Source: an uncultured Candidatus Saccharibacteria bacterium
GTDB taxonomy: Bacteria; Patescibacteriota; Minisyncoccia; Phycocordibacterales; CAYRGE01
Direction: 5' to 3'
Length of the DNA stretch: 64,000 nucleotides
NCBI GenBank assembly: GCA_964612415.1
Contig: CAZTCT010000002.1
Location: 13,631 to 77,630, forward strand
Shown here: one piece after another, positions 133 to 57,635 of the stretch
Numbering within the stretch: the first letter of the stretch is position 1
Layout: each line of letters begins with the position of its first letter
Notes under the pieces: generated by a model
Told to the model about the DNA's origin: nothing
Database searches by the model: none
The model's input: only the letters and a program-made list of their open reading frames with translations
Made by a program: the position numbers and the translations under genes

Positions 133-245
133 GGGCTAAATTGCCACCCCCCCCCTACTGAGGCAAATAGTCGGGGGAGGGGATATATAGGGAGAAAGGC
201 TTAAAACCCTTATTTTAAGCCATATTTTGGGCTTATCCCCATACT

Positions 246-310
246 TTTGAAATGTACGAGGTGGTTGGAAAAACGGCTCAACCGATCGGTTGAGCCGTTT
301 TTTGCCCCTT
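246..310. repeat. Repeat copy 1. Contains a 26-nt perfect palindrome ACGGCTCAACCGATCGGTTGAGCCGT (273..298) flanked by an A-run and a T-run, giving a bidirectional intrinsic terminator. Shares a 5' extension (aaatgtacgaggtggtt) with copy 2.
   Basis: Exact palindrome read directly; identical copies at 32041..32066 and 57583..57608. Confidence 0.85.
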
Positions 311-12808: not shown

Positions 12809-12825
12809 TGATATGGAGAAGCAAA

Positions 12826-12852
12826 GAAAAACCCCGCCAAGTGCGGGGTTTT
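12826..12852. terminator. Bidirectional intrinsic terminator between convergent rpmA and rplI
   Basis: AAAAA-CCCCGC-CAAGT-GCGGGG-TTTTT read directly. Confidence 0.8.
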
Positions 12853-12855
12853 TCT

Positions 12856-13305
12856 TTATTCTTCAACCACTTCAACTTCAAGTGTCACTTTGCCTCTATG
12901 TTCGCCTACGGTAATCCCAAGTGGGTGAATCCCAGCCTCTTTTATGGGCTTCTTAAGGGTAATATGCTCTGGTGACAGGTCGATGTCAGTCTGCTCCTTT
13001 ATTGCCTGCGCAATTTCTGCCTGATGAAGACCTGCAAAAAGATGCCCTTGATCATTCCCCTTGCCACTCATCTTGACCGTAATAGTTGCAAGGTCACCCA
13101 AGCTCTTAACCAAGAGCTCTTCTCGGACGGCAAGCTCCTGCTGATGGCGCAAGTTTAATGCCTCGTAGCGCTTCATCGCTGCCTTCGTGGCCACTTCAGC
13201 CTTTTTGGCTGGGAAAAGGAAGTTTCTAGCAAATCCTGGTGAAACTTCAGCAATTTGATACTTTTTGCCTACTTTGTGTACGTCTTGTAAAAGGATAACT
13301 TTCAT
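12856..13305 (-). CDS. rplI: Ribosomal protein L9
   Basis: MKVILLQDVHKVGKKYQIAEVSPGFARNFLFP typical L9 N-domain. Confidence 0.92.
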   Translation of the reverse strand: MKVILLQDVHKVGKKYQIAEVSPGFARNFLFPAKKAEVATKAAMKRYEALNLRHQQELAVREELLVKSLGDLATITVKMSGKGNDQGHLFAGLHQAEIAQAIKEQTDIDLSPEHITLKKPIKEAGIHPLGITVGEHRGKVTLEVEVVEE

Positions 13306-18466: not shown

Positions 18467-19090
18467 ATGAATGAGCTTGAGAAACTGGTCACTCTTTTTG
18501 CGAAGCTCCCAGGTGTTGGCAAACGGCAAGCGCGCCGTTTTGTGTACCACCTTTTGACCAGGGACAAGTCCGTAACCAAAGCGCTCATACAGGAGCTTGG
18601 ACGGCTCCATGAGCATATCTCTCAATGCGACCATTGTATGCGCTTCTTTGAAAAGAAAGGCGGCCCTGGCACACTCTGTCGCACGTGCGCAGACCCCCAC
18701 ACAGACAGAGCATCCATGCTTGTCGTTGAGAAGGATGTTGACCTTGAAAGTGTTGAGCGAAGCGGTGCATACTCCGGCAGATATTTTGTTATTGGCGGGA
18801 CACTCCCAATTCTTGAGAAGGAGCCAGAAAAGATGATACGCCTCAAAGCATTTATCTCCGAGCTAAAACGGGCCGCAAAGGAAGACAATCTCAGTGAAAT
18901 AATCTTCGCTCTCTCGGCGACTCCTGAAGGAGAGTACACAGCAGAGTACCTAAAGACTGCCACAAAAGAGGCAGGGTTTGGAGAAATTAGTACCAGTATC
19001 CTTGGACGCGGGCTCTCCACTGGAAGCGAGCTTGAATACTCCGATGAGGAGACGCTAAAAAGCGCCCTCAAGAATCGGGGCGCTTTTTAA
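18467..19090 (+). CDS. recR: Recombination protein RecR
   Basis: HhH (LPGVGKRQARRFVYHLL), C4 zinc finger CDHC...CRTC, Toprim. Start taken at MNELEKL (18467) just after the dnaB stop. Confidence 0.88.
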   Translation: MNELEKLVTLFAKLPGVGKRQARRFVYHLLTRDKSVTKALIQELGRLHEHISQCDHCMRFFEKKGGPGTLCRTCADPHTDRASMLVVEKDVDLESVERSGAYSGRYFVIGGTLPILEKEPEKMIRLKAFISELKRAAKEDNLSEIIFALSATPEGEYTAEYLKTATKEAGFGEISTSILGRGLSTGSELEYSDEETLKSALKNRGAF

Positions 19091-30036: not shown

Positions 30037-30076
30037 CCCCCCCCCCCCCCGCCCTCACCGGCGGGGTTTTCATTTT
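30037..30076 (+). terminator. Intrinsic terminator (C14 run + CCCCGCC-ctcacc-GGCGGGG + TTTT) after the small plus-strand ORF; overlaps the tgt stop codon
   Basis: Read directly. Confidence 0.6.
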
Positions 30077-31388: not shown

Positions 31389-31937
31389 ATGGACATTACA
31401 ATGATAGTTGCGCTCGGCGACAAAACTCATGTCATCGGCAAAAACGGAGAACTCCCCTGGCCATTCTTAGCAAAGGATTTGGCCAACTTCAAAGAGAGGA
31501 CGCTCGGCAAACCCTGTATTATGGGGAGAAAGACTGCCGAGTCGATCATGGCACGCTTGGGGAAGAGGAGGCTTCTCCCAGACCGAACGAATATTGTACT
31601 GACACGAGGATGCCGTCTCTATGATCATCCTAACGCCTATTGCGTAGAATCAGTAAATGAGGCGCTTCTCTACGCAAAAGAGCACGCAAATGGGCAAAAT
31701 GAAGCAATGATCATTGGGGGTGCCGAGATCTACAAATTGTTTTTTCCGTATGCAACTCGAATGATCATTACCATCGTCTACGGCGACTATGAGGGTGACA
31801 CTTATTTCCCCCGCTGGGACGAAGGAACTTGGATGAATCTCGAGGAGGAGACTCGCGCATTCCCGCCCGAGAATTCAACCCCCGGTTTCCGTATCGAGAC
31901 ATACAAACGCGTCGGCAAACCTGCACTTGCAATCTAG
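31389..31937 (+). CDS. folA: Dihydrofolate reductase
   Basis: IVALGDKTHVIGKNGELPW...ANFKERTLGKPCIMGRKTAESI DHFR signature. Confidence 0.82.
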   Translation: MDITMIVALGDKTHVIGKNGELPWPFLAKDLANFKERTLGKPCIMGRKTAESIMARLGKRRLLPDRTNIVLTRGCRLYDHPNAYCVESVNEALLYAKEHANGQNEAMIIGGAEIYKLFFPYATRMIITIVYGDYEGDTYFPRWDEGTWMNLEEETRAFPPENSTPGFRIETYKRVGKPALAI

Positions 31938-31944
31938 CACCCCC

Positions 31945-31984
31945 CCCCCTGCAAAACAGGCGTTTTGCAGGGGGTTTCTTTTTT
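31945..31984 (+). terminator. Intrinsic terminator of folA (13-bp G/C-rich stem + T10)
   Basis: CCCCCTGCAAAAC-aggc-GTTTTGCAGGGGG-TTTCTTTTTT. Confidence 0.8.
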
Positions 31985-32014
31985 ATCCCTTAAACACGAG
32001 GAGAGCTCATAGAT

Positions 32015-32077
32015 TTCAAATGTACGAGGTGGTTTAAAAAACGGCTCAACCGATCGGTTGAGCCGTTTTTTGCCCCT
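32015..32077. repeat. Repeat copy 2 (palindrome 32041..32066) between convergent folA and the ROK kinase gene
   Basis: About 60 nt nearly identical to copy 1, including the aaatgtacgaggtggtt extension. Confidence 0.85.
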
Positions 32078-32926
32078 CTAGAGGCCTTTTTGTCGCAAAT
32101 ATGCCATAGCCCCATGGACCCCCATTTCATCCCCAAATACTGCAGGGACTATCTCTGGCGCAACGGGGATAGTCCCCCTAATAGTGTCCTCAAGGCAAAG
32201 GCGCACCTCTGGGATGGGTATCCCGATCTTATTCATCATAGAACCCCCCAAGACAATGACCTCGGGTGACCAGAGCATGCAAATATCATGAAGCCCATAG
32301 GCAAGCCATTTGGCTTTTTCTTTCCAAAACTCTTCATCAGTGATTTCAACTGGCTTTCGTCCCTCATGTTGCTCAGTACAGGCGCCACTTATATAGCTTG
32401 CAAGATATCCCCCGCCGCAAATGTTTTGCGTATCGTTTAGTTTAGAGGCATCCACAATAAGCCAACTTGGCTCAAATCCTGTTGCACTCTCATCAATACG
32501 TCCGTCAACAAAACGGCATCCTCCAACTCCAGTACTTACTGTTATGTACGCCGCGATCCGTCGTCCTTGCGCTGGTCCATACGTGACTTGTGCAAGTCCC
32601 CCCATCGCAGCATCATTTTCAATAAAGACCTTACACCCGAGCGCGTTTTCAAATTGATCTTTTATTGGCTGTCGCAACCAGCCCTTAATATTTGTCCCGC
32701 CAGAAACCAATTCCGTTTTTTCGGCATTCGGAGAAGCTGCAACGCCAATTGCCGCAGCCTTAAGCGGCGTATCCCCACGAAGTTCTGTGATGACGCGCAC
32801 CACTTCGCTCACTCCTTCATGAAAATCAGGTGGTGTAGAAAAAACTTTTACCTCCCCAAAAGTGAGGAGGTCTGCCGAAAGCGCTACGCGTGTTTTTGTT
32901 CCACCGATATCAACTAGTGCGTACAT
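32078..32926 (-). CDS. ROK-family sugar kinase (glucokinase-like)
   Basis: N-terminal DIGGTKTRVAL, ENDAAMGGLA, VSTGVGGC ROK/actin-like ATPase motifs; last gene of the glycogen-PPP operon. Confidence 0.75.
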   Translation of the reverse strand: MYALVDIGGTKTRVALSADLLTFGEVKVFSTPPDFHEGVSEVVRVITELRGDTPLKAAAIGVAASPNAEKTELVSGGTNIKGWLRQPIKDQFENALGCKVFIENDAAMGGLAQVTYGPAQGRRIAAYITVSTGVGGCRFVDGRIDESATGFEPSWLIVDASKLNDTQNICGGGYLASYISGACTEQHEGRKPVEITDEEFWKEKAKWLAYGLHDICMLWSPEVIVLGGSMMNKIGIPIPEVRLCLEDTIRGTIPVAPEIVPAVFGDEMGVHGAMAYLRQKGL

Positions 32927-56850: not shown

Positions 56851-57579
56851 ATGTATCGTGATGCTATGAAAAAGCCAAGGAAGGCACCCAAGAAAATCGG
56901 CAACGAGTTTTGGAACAAGGAATACGGCGCCCCGGCAAATTTTGCCCTCTCACTCAATCCGAGTGAAGACCTGCAGAAATTTGTGCGTTTTCTTGAGCGT
57001 GAGCACGGAAGAGTGTACCTCAATCCGATTGCATCAGTCCTTGACCTCGGTTGTGGCAATGGGCGCAACCTCATGTACTTGGCGAAGAACTACAATATGC
57101 GCGGTGTAGGATACGACATATCCAAGGAAGCAATTGATCAGGCAAAGGAGGCAAGCCGGGATATGCGCATTGAGTACGATGTGCGCTCAGTCGCAGAACC
57201 CCTGCCACTCCCCGACAAATCGCAAACAATTGTTTTGGACATGATGGTATCTCATGTGCTCAATAAAAACGAGCGCGAACAGCTGCGTGAAGAAACTGCA
57301 CGCGTTTTAAAACCAGGCGGCTGGCTTTTCTTAAAAACATTTCTCCGTGATGAAGACCGTCATGCAGAGCGACTCCTGCGAGAGCACCCTGCTGAGGAAA
57401 TGGGCTCATATGTACACCCTGAGATCGGTGTTGTTGAGCACGTATTCACAGAAGATGAGCTCCGTGAAGAGCTTGAGAAGAATTTTTTCATCCACAAGGT
57501 TTATACCTCCCACCGACACCTTATTCGCGGCAAAGCTGCCAAGCGACGCAGTATTTCCATATATGCCCAGCGGGTATAA
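56851..57579 (+). CDS. Class I SAM-dependent methyltransferase
   Basis: VLDLGCGNGRNLMYL motif I. Confidence 0.8.
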   Translation: MYRDAMKKPRKAPKKIGNEFWNKEYGAPANFALSLNPSEDLQKFVRFLEREHGRVYLNPIASVLDLGCGNGRNLMYLAKNYNMRGVGYDISKEAIDQAKEASRDMRIEYDVRSVAEPLPLPDKSQTIVLDMMVSHVLNKNEREQLREETARVLKPGGWLFLKTFLRDEDRHAERLLREHPAEEMGSYVHPEIGVVEHVFTEDELREELEKNFFIHKVYTSHRHLIRGKAAKRRSISIYAQRV

Positions 57580-57582
57580 AAA

Positions 57583-57608
57583 ACGGCTCAACCGATCGGT
57601 TGAGCCGT
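57583..57608. repeat. Repeat copy 3: the same 26-nt palindrome + A/T runs between convergent genes (bidirectional terminator)
   Basis: Identical to 273..298 and 32041..32066. Confidence 0.85.
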
Positions 57609-57635
57609 TTTTTGTGGCTTAAAATCGTTGTGTGC

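What the first reader, a model, noticed from the sequence alone, without database searches (positions are those of the whole stretch)
246..310. Three-copy 26-nt perfect palindrome used as bidirectional terminator, two copies with a shared 5' extension
ACGGCTCAACCGATCGGTTGAGCCGT occurs identically at 273..298, 32041..32066 and 57583..57608. Each time it is flanked by A5-6 upstream and T6 downstream, and it sits 3' of genes, convergent in two cases.

Copies 1 and 2 additionally share tt(t/c)aaatgtacgaggtggtt immediately 5' and gcccct 3', giving about 60 nt at more than 90% identity.

Identical copies in a compact genome imply recent spread. Candidates are a REP/MITE-like mobile terminator, a recombination hotspot, or a small RNA gene family; the shared extension could be a transcribed sRNA body ending in the terminator. 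The CGATCG centre is a PvuI-type site.
Basis: seen in the sequence. Interest (0 to 1): 0.6.

Follow-up and report, generated by a model that had tools for sequence, protein, structure and literature searches.

The report
Three-copy bidirectional terminator cassette
One perfectly symmetric transcription-stop hairpin occurs three times in this tiny-genome (Patescibacteria) bacterium, twice inside a short 69-87-base cassette that is present in one strain and absent in a near-identical one; it is a small dispersed terminator repeat of a known kind, not a new type of element.

Summary
ACGGCTCAACCGATCGGTTGAGCCGT occurs exactly three times, against 0 expected by chance. With its A5-6 and T6 flanks it forms a 34-36-nt perfect palindrome, a canonical two-way Rho-independent terminator shape. 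It lies 0-22 nt from stop codons at two convergent gene pairs.

The window is from a Paceibacterota (CPR) genome. Symmetric A-tract/stem/T-tract terminators are routine in this clade.

New findings:
- Copy 3 is old. It sits at the same site in six samples, including a relative with 82% nucleotide identity whose centre is GTAC, not GATC.
- Copies 1 and 2 lie in a discrete cassette of 69 and 87 nt. The 87-nt cassette is missing, T-run to T-run, from a contig 99.97% identical to one that carries it.
- The cassette leaders differ by 15% plus an 18-nt indel, while the 36-nt palindrome has no differences. Identity therefore reflects constraint, not recent spread.
- "gcccct" is host flank, not part of the element.

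I found no promoter, Rfam match, isolated half-site, transposase or R-M gene, so the sRNA, uptake-sequence and PvuI readings are unsupported. The closest analogue is the pneumococcal SPRITE repeat. Whether the polymorphism is an insertion or a slippage deletion is unresolved. Interest is low to moderate.

The parts
269..303 (.). Copy 1 terminator: A5 + CGGCTCAACC-GATC-GGTTGAGCCG + T6
   Evidence: The RNA fold is identical on both strands, about -24 kcal/mol for the 36-nt form.
235..268 (+). Copy 1 cassette leader (ATCCC CATACTTTTGAAATGTACGAGGTGGTTGG), non-palindromic
   Evidence: It is paralogous to 31985-32035, with 5 mismatches and an 18-nt indel.
198..221 (+). Pre-existing terminator-like hairpin (GGCTTAAAA-CCCTTA-TTTTAAGCC + ATATTTTGGG); its stem ends 13 nt before the copy-1 cassette
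31945..31984 (+). DHFR's own terminator hairpin plus TTTCTTTTTT tail. Its last six T (31979-31984) form a direct repeat with the T6 that ends the cassette.
   Evidence: It is conserved in the element-free strain L085.
31985..32035 (+). Copy 2 cassette leader (51 nt)
   Evidence: It is absent from L085/L100.
32036..32071 (.). Copy 2 terminator, a 36-nt perfect palindrome. Together with 31985-32035 it makes the 87-nt unit missing from strain L085.
32072..32080 (-). GCCCCTCTA: ROK 3' flank and stop codon. It is present in the empty allele, so it is flank. A similar GCCCCTTTA follows copy 1 at 304-312.
57578..57613 (.). Copy 3 terminator: the 36-nt palindrome only, with no leader. Its A-run overlaps the methyltransferase stop codon.
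   Evidence: The site is occupied in all six samples seen, with a GTAC centre in L088.

Best explanation
The palindrome is a two-way Rho-independent terminator. Transcription from either strand produces the same RNA: A5-6, a 10-11-bp G+C-rich stem (CGGCUCAACC / GGUUGAGCCG), a GAUC loop, then U6. RNA polymerase approaching from either side therefore meets a hairpin followed by a U-tract.

The three copies are paralogues of one sequence.
- Copy 3 is an old resident terminator of the convergent methyltransferase/diacylglycerol-kinase pair.
- Copies 1 and 2 belong to a short non-coding cassette: a 34-51-nt leader plus the terminator, 69 and 87 nt in all. The cassette was duplicated into intergenic DNA just downstream of pre-existing terminator hairpins, next to T-runs.
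- At copy 2 the cassette gives the ROK gene a proper hairpin-plus-U-tract stop, which the cassette-free allele lacks.

The duplication is old, because the leaders have diverged by 15%. The hairpin stays identical because of selection for pairing, probably helped by palindrome self-correction through intrastrand template switching. That would also explain the symmetric GATC-to-GTAC change in a relative.

The strain polymorphism at copy 2 is most simply a recent precise deletion, by replication slippage between the two T6 repeats that bracket the hairpin.

Shown: the sequence anatomy, positions, paralogy, unit boundaries, polymorphism, differential conservation, and absence of mobility genes in the window. 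Inferred: actual termination, the duplication mechanism, and the direction of the indel.
For: - Chance is excluded: 0 matches in 100 shuffles, and this is the only long repeat family in the window.
- Hairpin energy is -18 kcal/mol for the 24-nt core and -24.2 for the 36-nt form, comparable with the window's other terminators.
- Positions are 0, 6 and 22 nt from stop codons of convergent genes.
- The same A-tract/stem/T-tract architecture occurs with unique sequences at other convergent pairs in the window (12823-12857, 19056-19089). In 1.35 Mb of related Paceibacterota loci it occurs at 1.3 per 10 kb.
- The empty allele is TTTCTTTTTT|GCCCCTCTAG in L085/L100, and the occupied allele is in L086. 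The two are 99.97% identical over 2913 nt and both about 91% identical to the window, which is also occupied. One deletion is the most parsimonious explanation.
- The left edge of the indel coincides with the start of copy-1/copy-2 similarity, (TT)ATCCC.
- The leaders differ at 5/34 positions plus an 18-nt indel, while the palindrome is 0/36 (P = 0.003).
- Copy 3 is present in six samples, and in an 82%-identity relative it shows only a symmetric change at the centre.
- Perfect-to-centre palindromes make up 24-27% of even-length hairpins in the clade against 6% expected, consistent with a symmetrising mutational process. The template-switch mechanism is described in PMC7202029.
- In L085 the minus-strand view of the DHFR hairpin is followed by a G-run, not a U-tract.
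Against: - No transcript data exist, so termination is inferred from anatomy alone.
- Only 64 kb of the genome, plus about 4 kb beyond the right edge, could be read, so the genome-wide copy number is unknown.
- The direction of the indel is not polarised by an outgroup. An insertion in the L086 lineage at exactly the same site as in the window would also fit and would imply site-specific mobility.
- The shared right flank GCCCCTYTA at copies 1 and 2, which is flank at copy 2, is not explained by simple selection. It hints at target preference or microhomology-guided copying.
- The origin of the leader is unknown. It has no significant similarity to the methyltransferase 3' end.
Confidence: 0.6

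Rival explanations
1. The cassette is an active, non-autonomous mobile element (MITE/REP/SPRITE-like), moved in trans by an enzyme encoded elsewhere. It inserts site-specifically next to terminator T-runs, 5' of GCCCCT. On this reading the occupied allele in L086 is a recent insertion.
For: - There is a presence/absence difference between 99.97%-identical contigs.
- The unit boundaries are discrete, and paralogue and orthologue comparisons agree on them at the left end.
- T6 lies on both sides and could be a target-site duplication.
- Both cassettes sit 10-13 nt after a pre-existing hairpin and are followed by GCCCCTYTA.
Against: - The 87-nt unit has no terminal inverted repeats. The leader/right-flank complementarity is at chance level (p about 0.5).
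- No transposase, RAYT or IS is present in the 64-kb window or the flanking Logan contigs.
- The leaders are 15% diverged, so there has been no recent burst.
- The same site is occupied in a lineage 9% diverged, which needs two insertions or an ancestral polymorphism, against one deletion.
- Only three copies were seen.
Confidence: 0.22
2. Leader plus hairpin is a small RNA gene family: a transcript of about 60-90 nt ending at the terminator.
For: - About 30 nt of conserved sequence with an SD-like GAGGTGG lies directly 5' of a strong terminator in two copies.
- The folds are significantly stable, although that stability comes from the hairpin.
Against: - There is no sigma-70-like promoter on either strand.
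- Similarity between copies begins only about 30-50 nt before the hairpin and is broken by an 18-nt indel.
- No Rfam family reaches its gathering score. The best hit is 26.8 bits against a gathering score of 56.
- The leader is absent at copy 3 and from all 80 related loci.
- The cassette is dispensable in strain L085.
Confidence: 0.06
3. The palindrome is primarily a DNA-level site: an operator for a dimeric protein, a DNA-uptake sequence pair, a restriction/methylation target (CGATCG/GATC) or a recombination site. On this reading it only resembles a terminator.
For: - Symmetry is perfect to the centre and is maintained after change (GATC to GTAC).
- Inverted uptake-sequence pairs do serve as terminators in Neisseria and Haemophilus (Kingsford et al. 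2007, PMC1852404, listed).
Against: - No isolated arms occur anywhere in the 64 kb, even allowing 2 mismatches.
- CGATCG frequency is ordinary.
- The central site is not conserved in a relative.
- Positions are at gene 3' ends, not at promoters.
- A/T tracts are exactly what a terminator needs.
- Perfect-centre palindromes are common among the clade's terminators generally.
- Gene order is conserved across copies 1 and 2 in relatives, so there is no sign of recombination.
Confidence: 0.05
4. These are three independently evolved terminators that happen to be alike, the refutation case named by the first reader.
For: None beyond the common architecture.
Against: - 36 of 36 nt are identical in three places, with 0 matches in 100 shuffles.
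- Other terminators in the window all have different stems.
- Copies 1 and 2 share a further 30-plus nt.
Confidence: 0.01

Closest known systems
Bidirectional intrinsic (Rho-independent) terminators between convergent genes (Ju, Li & Liu 2019, Nat Microbiol, PMC6814526, cited)
   Same: - A symmetric hairpin flanked by an A-tract and a T-tract, so that both strands read hairpin plus U-tract.
- It sits between convergent genes, close to their stop codons.
   Different: Ordinary terminators are each unique in sequence. Here one 36-nt sequence is used three times, and twice it travels with a leader as a cassette.
[quoted passage not shown] 2011, PMC3049150)
   Same: - A small interspersed repeat whose fold is a long stem followed by a U-rich tract.
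- A-run/T-run ends.
- Strongly enriched close to 3' ends between convergent genes.
- No matching IS element or transposase is known.
- It appears old and transposes slowly.
   Different: - SPRITE has about 30 copies per genome, is AT-rich, and no empty site was available for it. Here only 3 copies are seen, the stem is G+C-rich, and an empty site is available.
- Sequence homology to SPRITE was not tested and is not expected, because the phyla are unrelated.
REP / REPIN elements of Proteobacteria (RAYT-mobilised)
   Same: Short extragenic palindromes at gene 3' ends that can act on termination or mRNA stability (bioRxiv 10.64898/2026.03.23.713779).
   Different: - There is no 5' GTAG tetranucleotide and no inverted doublets.
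- No RAYT gene is in the window.
- The copy number is far lower.
- This palindrome is perfect and has U-tracts.
MITEs such as Correia, RUP and BOX (reviewed by Delihas 2011, PMC3184786, listed)
   Same: Under 200 nt, non-coding, intergenic, and polymorphic for presence or absence between strains.
   Different: - There are no terminal inverted repeats at the ends of the 87-nt unit.
- The flanking T6 repeat is ambiguous as a target duplication.
- No parent IS element is present.
Quasipalindrome template-switch mutation and slipped-strand deletion between direct repeats flanking hairpins (for example PMC7202029; the deletion mechanism is from general knowledge)
   Same: - It explains the symmetric double change at the palindrome centre.
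- It explains the clade-wide excess of perfect palindromes.
- It explains a precise T6-to-T6 loss of the cassette.
   Different: These are mutational processes, not element families. They are inferred here and were not demonstrated.

Membership tests
Bidirectional Rho-independent terminator | G+C-rich hairpin (stem about 5-14 bp, loop 3-8 nt) | tested here: met
   A 10-11-bp stem with a GAUC loop, -18 to -19.7 kcal/mol. With the A:U extension it is -24.2 kcal/mol.
Bidirectional Rho-independent terminator | U-tract immediately 3' of the stem on both strands | tested here: met
   T6 lies downstream and A5-6 upstream in all three copies.
Bidirectional Rho-independent terminator | Location just downstream of stop codons, typically between convergent genes | tested here: met
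   Copy 2 is 6 nt from the ROK stop. Copy 3 overlaps the methyltransferase stop and is 22 nt from the kinase stop. Copy 1 lies between co-directional genes, 136 nt after the AspRS stop.
Bidirectional Rho-independent terminator | Transcript 3' ends map to the U-tracts | not testable with these tools
   No transcriptome data are available.
MITE | Terminal inverted repeats at the ends of the mobile unit | tested here: not met
   The unit defined by the empty site (31985-32071) begins ATCCCTTAAAC and ends GCCGTTTTTT. Leader versus right-flank complementarity is at chance level (p about 0.5).
MITE | Target-site duplication | tested here: inconclusive
   T6 lies on both sides of copy 2, but the left flank of copy 1 is GGGCTT. 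T6 is equally the microhomology expected for a slippage deletion.
MITE | Presence/absence polymorphism at otherwise identical sites | tested here: met
   L085 is empty and L086 occupied, at 99.97% identity.
MITE | Related autonomous IS element or transposase | tested here: not met
   None is present among the window ORFs or the neighbouring Logan contigs. The rest of the genome could not be read.
REP/REPIN | Conserved 5' GTAG tetranucleotide and an imperfect palindrome, often in inverted doublets | tested here: not met
   The sequence read directly has no GTAG, the palindrome is perfect, and the copies are single.
REP/REPIN | RAYT (Y1 transposase) gene in the genome, flanked by REPs | tested here: not met
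   No Y1_Tnp hit in the window. Genome-wide presence was not testable.
SPRITE-like terminator repeat | Interspersed multi-copy repeat folding as a long stem plus U-rich tract, near 3' ends of convergent genes | tested here: met
   Three copies, two of them at convergent pairs. This is an analogy only; sequence homology to SPRITE was not tested.
DNA uptake sequence pair (DUS/USS-type terminator) | The arm occurs as abundant single copies, about one per kb, throughout the genome | tested here: not met
   The 13-nt arm with up to 2 mismatches is found only inside the three palindromes, apart from one chance-level 2-mismatch hit.
Small RNA gene | Own promoter upstream of a conserved body ending in a terminator | tested here: not met
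   There are no promoter-like sites in 100-420 or 31850-32150 on either strand. There is no Rfam match at gathering score.
Small RNA gene | Discrete transcript | not testable with these tools
   No RNA-seq data are available.

The most novel reading that the evidence does not exclude
The cassette could be an active 'portable terminator' of Patescibacteria. This would be a non-autonomous element without terminal inverted repeats that copies itself, by template switching or an unknown trans-acting enzyme, specifically into the T-run just behind existing terminator hairpins and 5' of GCCCCT. It would give neighbouring convergent genes a two-way stop signal. Its copies would be kept perfectly symmetric and mutually identical by DNA-level self-correction or gene conversion. 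That would be the first small mobile repeat family described in these ultra-reduced genomes.
Probability: 0.15. Interest if true: 0.55.

Novelty: new member of a known kind. Interest (0 to 1): 0.3.

Why it matters
- Patescibacteria genomes are tiny and almost free of repeats. In this window the palindrome is the only repeat family above chance level. A dispersed terminator cassette shows that even these genomes duplicate and reuse regulatory DNA.
- The cassette-free and cassette-bearing alleles form a natural experiment on whether a convergent gene (ROK) needs a proper terminator.
- The symmetric change at the palindrome centre, and the clade-wide excess of perfect palindromes, suggest that template-switch 'self-correction' shapes terminators in this clade.
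- There is a practical consequence. Every short-read (Logan) contig recovered around the three occupied sites ends inside the palindrome, so such elements limit the contiguity of assembled genomes.
- None of this changes a major concept.

Tried and rejected
- **Public collections.** The exact 26-mer has 0 hits in 185,579 GTDB representative genomes. The 22-nt core has one hit in JGI metagenomes (L001). That hit has different A/T flanks and an unrelated gene context, consistent with chance given only 11 independent bases. Viral contigs gave 0 hits for the palindrome (GATC or GTAC centre) and one coding-region chance hit for the leader.
- **Related loci.** blastn-short of the three regions against 80 related Paceibacterota loci found nothing. 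A fuzzy search of the core with up to 5 mismatches found nothing.
- **Leader origin.** The leader as a copy of the methyltransferase 3' end was not significant (local p = 0.7-0.9; end-anchored p = 0.05-0.07).
- **Leader structure.** An internal tandem repeat in the copy-2 leader was not significant (p = 0.12). An extended inverted repeat between the leader (GAGGTGG) and the right flank (GCCCCTC), suggested by RNAfold, was at chance level (p about 0.5). A TA-bounded MITE model is contradicted by the empty site.
- **Small ORFs.** Candidates in the leader (MYEVV*, MYEVVGKTAQPIG*) are not conserved between the copies.
- **Copy-1 orthologous site.** The AspRS fragment search returned only short fragments. 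The best contig ended 29 nt after the gene. The ScpB look-up did not reach the site. The closest ScpA relative (79% identity) has an intergenic region of 250 nt against 265 nt here, but its DNA was not retrievable.
- **Copy-2 left junction.** The DHFR side of the L086 lineage could not be obtained.
- **Terminator scanner.** The tool does not list the palindrome because the A:T pairs absorb the T-tract into the stem. I judged it by direct reading and folding.

Full report

Yes. ACGGCTCAACCGATCGGTTGAGCCGT occurs at 273-298, 32041-32066 and 57583-57608. No additional match appears even with three mismatches, and none appeared in 100 dinucleotide-preserving shuffles. Reading the flanks and running a perfect-hairpin scan shows the true perfect palindrome is longer. 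It is A5-CGG...CCG-T5 for copy 1 (269-302, with a sixth T at 303). It is A6...T6, 36 nt, for copies 2 (32036-32071) and 3 (57578-57613).

Copies 1 and 2 share 73 nt at 92% (240-312 versus 32008-32080). This is the only repeat family in the window that rises above chance-level short matches. The repeat is not an assembly artefact. Independent Logan assemblies of six sequencing runs contain it, and their contigs end inside it.

**2. Context**

The window encodes only housekeeping genes, and none is a transposase, a RAYT or a restriction-modification gene (and the Pfam tables). They are:
- AspRS-type synthetase, ScpA/B, cell-wall genes, and ribosomal proteins L27, L9 and L21.
- CysRS, DnaB, RecR, UvrABC and TGT.
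- DHFR, ROK, pentose-phosphate enzymes, a glycogen cluster, an AddA-like helicase and an ABC Zn transporter.

No tRNA gene or Rfam family is present. The best TGT relatives are Patescibacteria/Paceibacterota, near Candidatus Yonathbacteria, at no more than 72% identity. The exact proteins sit on an NCBI contig of 131 kb and in Logan assemblies.

Gene contexts of the three copies:
- Copy 1 lies between the co-directional AspRS-type gene (stop 130-132) and ScpA (start 398).
- Copy 2 lies between convergent DHFR (+) and ROK (-). The ROK stop is 6 nt from the T-run.
- Copy 3 lies between the convergent methyltransferase (+), whose stop overlaps the A-run, and diacylglycerol kinase (-), whose stop is 22 nt away.

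**3. The terminator reading**

Both strands give the same RNA: an A-tract, a 10-11-bp G+C-rich stem, a GAUC loop and U6. Predicted energy is -18 kcal/mol for the 24-nt core and -24.2 for the 36-nt form, like the window's other terminators.

The same architecture, with unique sequences, occurs at other convergent pairs in the window: L27/L9 at 12823-12857 and RecR/L21 at 19056-19089. In 1.35 Mb of related Paceibacterota loci, perfect hairpins with stems of at least 12 bp occur 1.3 times per 10 kb, many of them A-tract/T-tract forms. The architecture is therefore ordinary for this clade. Only the reuse of one sequence is unusual.

**4. Comparison with close strains: the main new evidence**

Exact-protein look-ups retrieved contigs from several strains.

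*(a) Copy 2 is an indel polymorphism.*
- A 20.5-kb contig from ERR15459717 (L085/L100) runs straight from the DHFR terminator into ROK as ...GCAGGGG TTTCTTTTTT|GCCCCTCTAGAGG....
- At that point the window has TTTCTTTTTT plus 87 nt (31985-32071, ATCCCTTAAAC...GAGCCGTTTTTT) plus GCCCCTCTAGAGG.
- A contig from SRR12009705 (L086) is 99.97% identical to L085 over 2913 nt, with one mismatch 2.1 kb away. It carries the palindrome at the same junction.
- Both contigs are only about 91% identical to the window there.
- The cassette is therefore a discrete unit bounded by T6 on both sides, and it differs between near-identical strains.

*(b) The unit has a consistent left edge.* The left edge of the indel coincides with the point where copy-1/copy-2 similarity starts, (TT)ATCCC. 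Copy 1 (235-303, 69 nt) lacks 18 nt that copy 2 has.

*(c) Copy 3 is old.* It is present in all six samples that reach the site. These include a relative at 82% nucleotide identity (L088), where the palindrome is unchanged except that the centre is GTAC, not GATC. That is two substitutions that keep perfect symmetry.

**5. Age and constraint**

The leaders of copies 1 and 2 differ at 5 of 34 aligned positions plus the 18-nt indel, whereas the 36-nt palindrome shows 0 differences among three copies. If it evolved like the leader, the probability of that would be 0.003. Together with the orthologous conservation of copy 3, this rejects the inference that identical copies mean recent spread. The hairpin is constrained, or homogenised, and the duplication is old.

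The symmetric centre change suggests DNA-level symmetrisation by intrastrand template switching, because loop bases have no pairing constraint. So does the clade-wide excess of palindromes that are perfect to the centre:
- All even-length hairpins: 36 of 134.
- A-tract hairpins: 10 of 41.
- Expectation: 1 in 16 (P = 6e-14 and 2e-4).

The template-switch mechanism is described in PMC7202029. This part is inference.

**6. Insertion or deletion?**

Parsimony favours an ancestral cassette, since it is present in the window lineage and in L086. A single precise deletion in L085, by slippage between the two T6 runs that the hairpin brings together, would then explain the empty allele. An insertion in L086 at the very same site cannot be excluded. 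It would imply site specificity, and the shared GCCCCTYTA right flank at copies 1 and 2 hints at that, or at microhomology-guided copying. L086 carries its own lineage's SNPs from 87 nt beyond the junction, so import from a window-like strain by homologous recombination would need a very short tract. The left side of L086 and any outgroup could not be obtained.

**7. Functional consequence (inferred)**

In the cassette-free allele, the ROK stop is followed on its own strand by the DHFR hairpin read backwards. That hairpin is followed by a G-run, not a U-tract. With the cassette, ROK has a canonical hairpin plus U6 starting 6 nt after its stop. DHFR already has its own terminator (31945-31984), so for DHFR the cassette is a second, tandem stop.

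**8. Rival readings**

- *sRNA.* There is no promoter-like site on either strand. Rfam matches are far below gathering score. Candidate small ORFs are not conserved. The leader is absent from copy 3 and from related loci.
- *Uptake sequence.* No isolated arms occur in the window.
- *PvuI or R-M target.* CGATCG occurs 13 times against about 15.6 expected. The centre differs in a relative, and no R-M genes are present.
- *MITE.* There are no terminal inverted repeats and no transposase.
- *REP.* There is no GTAG, no doublets and no RAYT.
- *Convergent evolution.* Excluded.

**9. Comparison with known systems**

The palindrome works like the bidirectional intrinsic terminators described by Ju et al. 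2019 (cited). As a repeat, its closest analogue is SPRITE of S. pneumoniae. SPRITE is an interspersed terminator-like repeat with A-run/T-run ends, enriched close to 3' ends between convergent genes, with no known transposase and slow turnover (PMC3049150). The resemblance is functional and architectural. Sequence homology was not tested and is not expected. Literature searches found no description of small dispersed repeats or intrinsic terminators in Patescibacteria.

**10. Verdict**

This is a real but essentially ordinary feature: a small, old, constrained, dispersed terminator cassette, a new member of a known kind. Interest is 0.3. The most novel reading not excluded is an active site-specific 'portable terminator' in CPR bacteria, at about 15% probability.

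Noticed in passing
window 147-155 (C9), 332-339 (G8), 30037-30050 (C14), 31940-31949 (C10): Long intergenic C or G homopolymer tracts form one arm of C-run/G-run hairpins right after stop codons. Three of the four lie within about 130 nt of cassette copies 1 and 2. Tract length varies between strains or assemblies: C10 in the window, C12 in L002, C11 in L085. This could be sequencing noise or phase-variable tracts.
   Followed up: partly
window 31958-31961 versus L085 (DHFR terminator loop): The 4-nt loop of the DHFR terminator is AGGC in the window and GCCT, its reverse complement, in strain L085. The stem is unchanged. This is a hairpin-loop inversion between strains.
   Followed up: no
window 31389-31937 (DHFR) versus L085 10903-11430: The DHFR proteins of the two lineages are only 68% identical, although the flanking TGT, promoter, terminator and ROK sequences are 91-95% identical in DNA. 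This points to an allele replacement or very fast evolution of this one gene. More generally, strains are mosaics. The ERR15459717 contigs are 99.9-100% identical to the window around copy 3 but 91-95% around copy 2.
   Followed up: partly
L091 (SRR12009705), equivalent to window about 57618: An extra 15 nt, CCTGGCCGGGCAGGC, lies between the copy-3 T-run and the kinase stop codon in one strain. It is a small G+C-rich quasi-palindromic indel.
   Followed up: no
Related loci: L007 2626-2667 and 3243-3282; L020 3252-3289 and 16385-16424; L015 8506-8547; L010 9252-9291; L013 12817-12860; L039 2301-2350 and 18882-18931: Several related Paceibacterota genomes carry 38-50-nt perfect palindromes without A/T tracts, sometimes two similar copies per locus. 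Many have the form TCACR...CTATAG...YGTGA. This may be another palindromic repeat or operator family in the clade.
   Followed up: no
80 related loci plus the window (1.4 Mb): Hairpins that are perfect palindromes right through the loop are about four times more frequent than random loop sequences would give: 36 of 134 overall and 10 of 41 with A-tracts, against 1 in 16 expected.
   Followed up: partly
L001 83-118 (JGI contig Ga0182027_10297583): An unrelated metagenome contig has TTTTAAAGGCTCAACCGATCGGTTGAGCCTTTAAAA, with the same 22-nt core, 12 nt after a 498-aa ORF. This is probably chance convergence, since only 11 bases are independent. The organism was not identified.
   Followed up: partly
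Logan contigs L002-L004, L086, L088-L097: Every Logan short-read contig retrieved next to one of the three occupied sites (L002-L004, L086, L088-L097) ends inside or at the edge of the palindrome. The only contig that crosses the copy-2 site is the one lacking the cassette. Such palindromes are a systematic cause of contig breaks in these genomes.
   Followed up: partly
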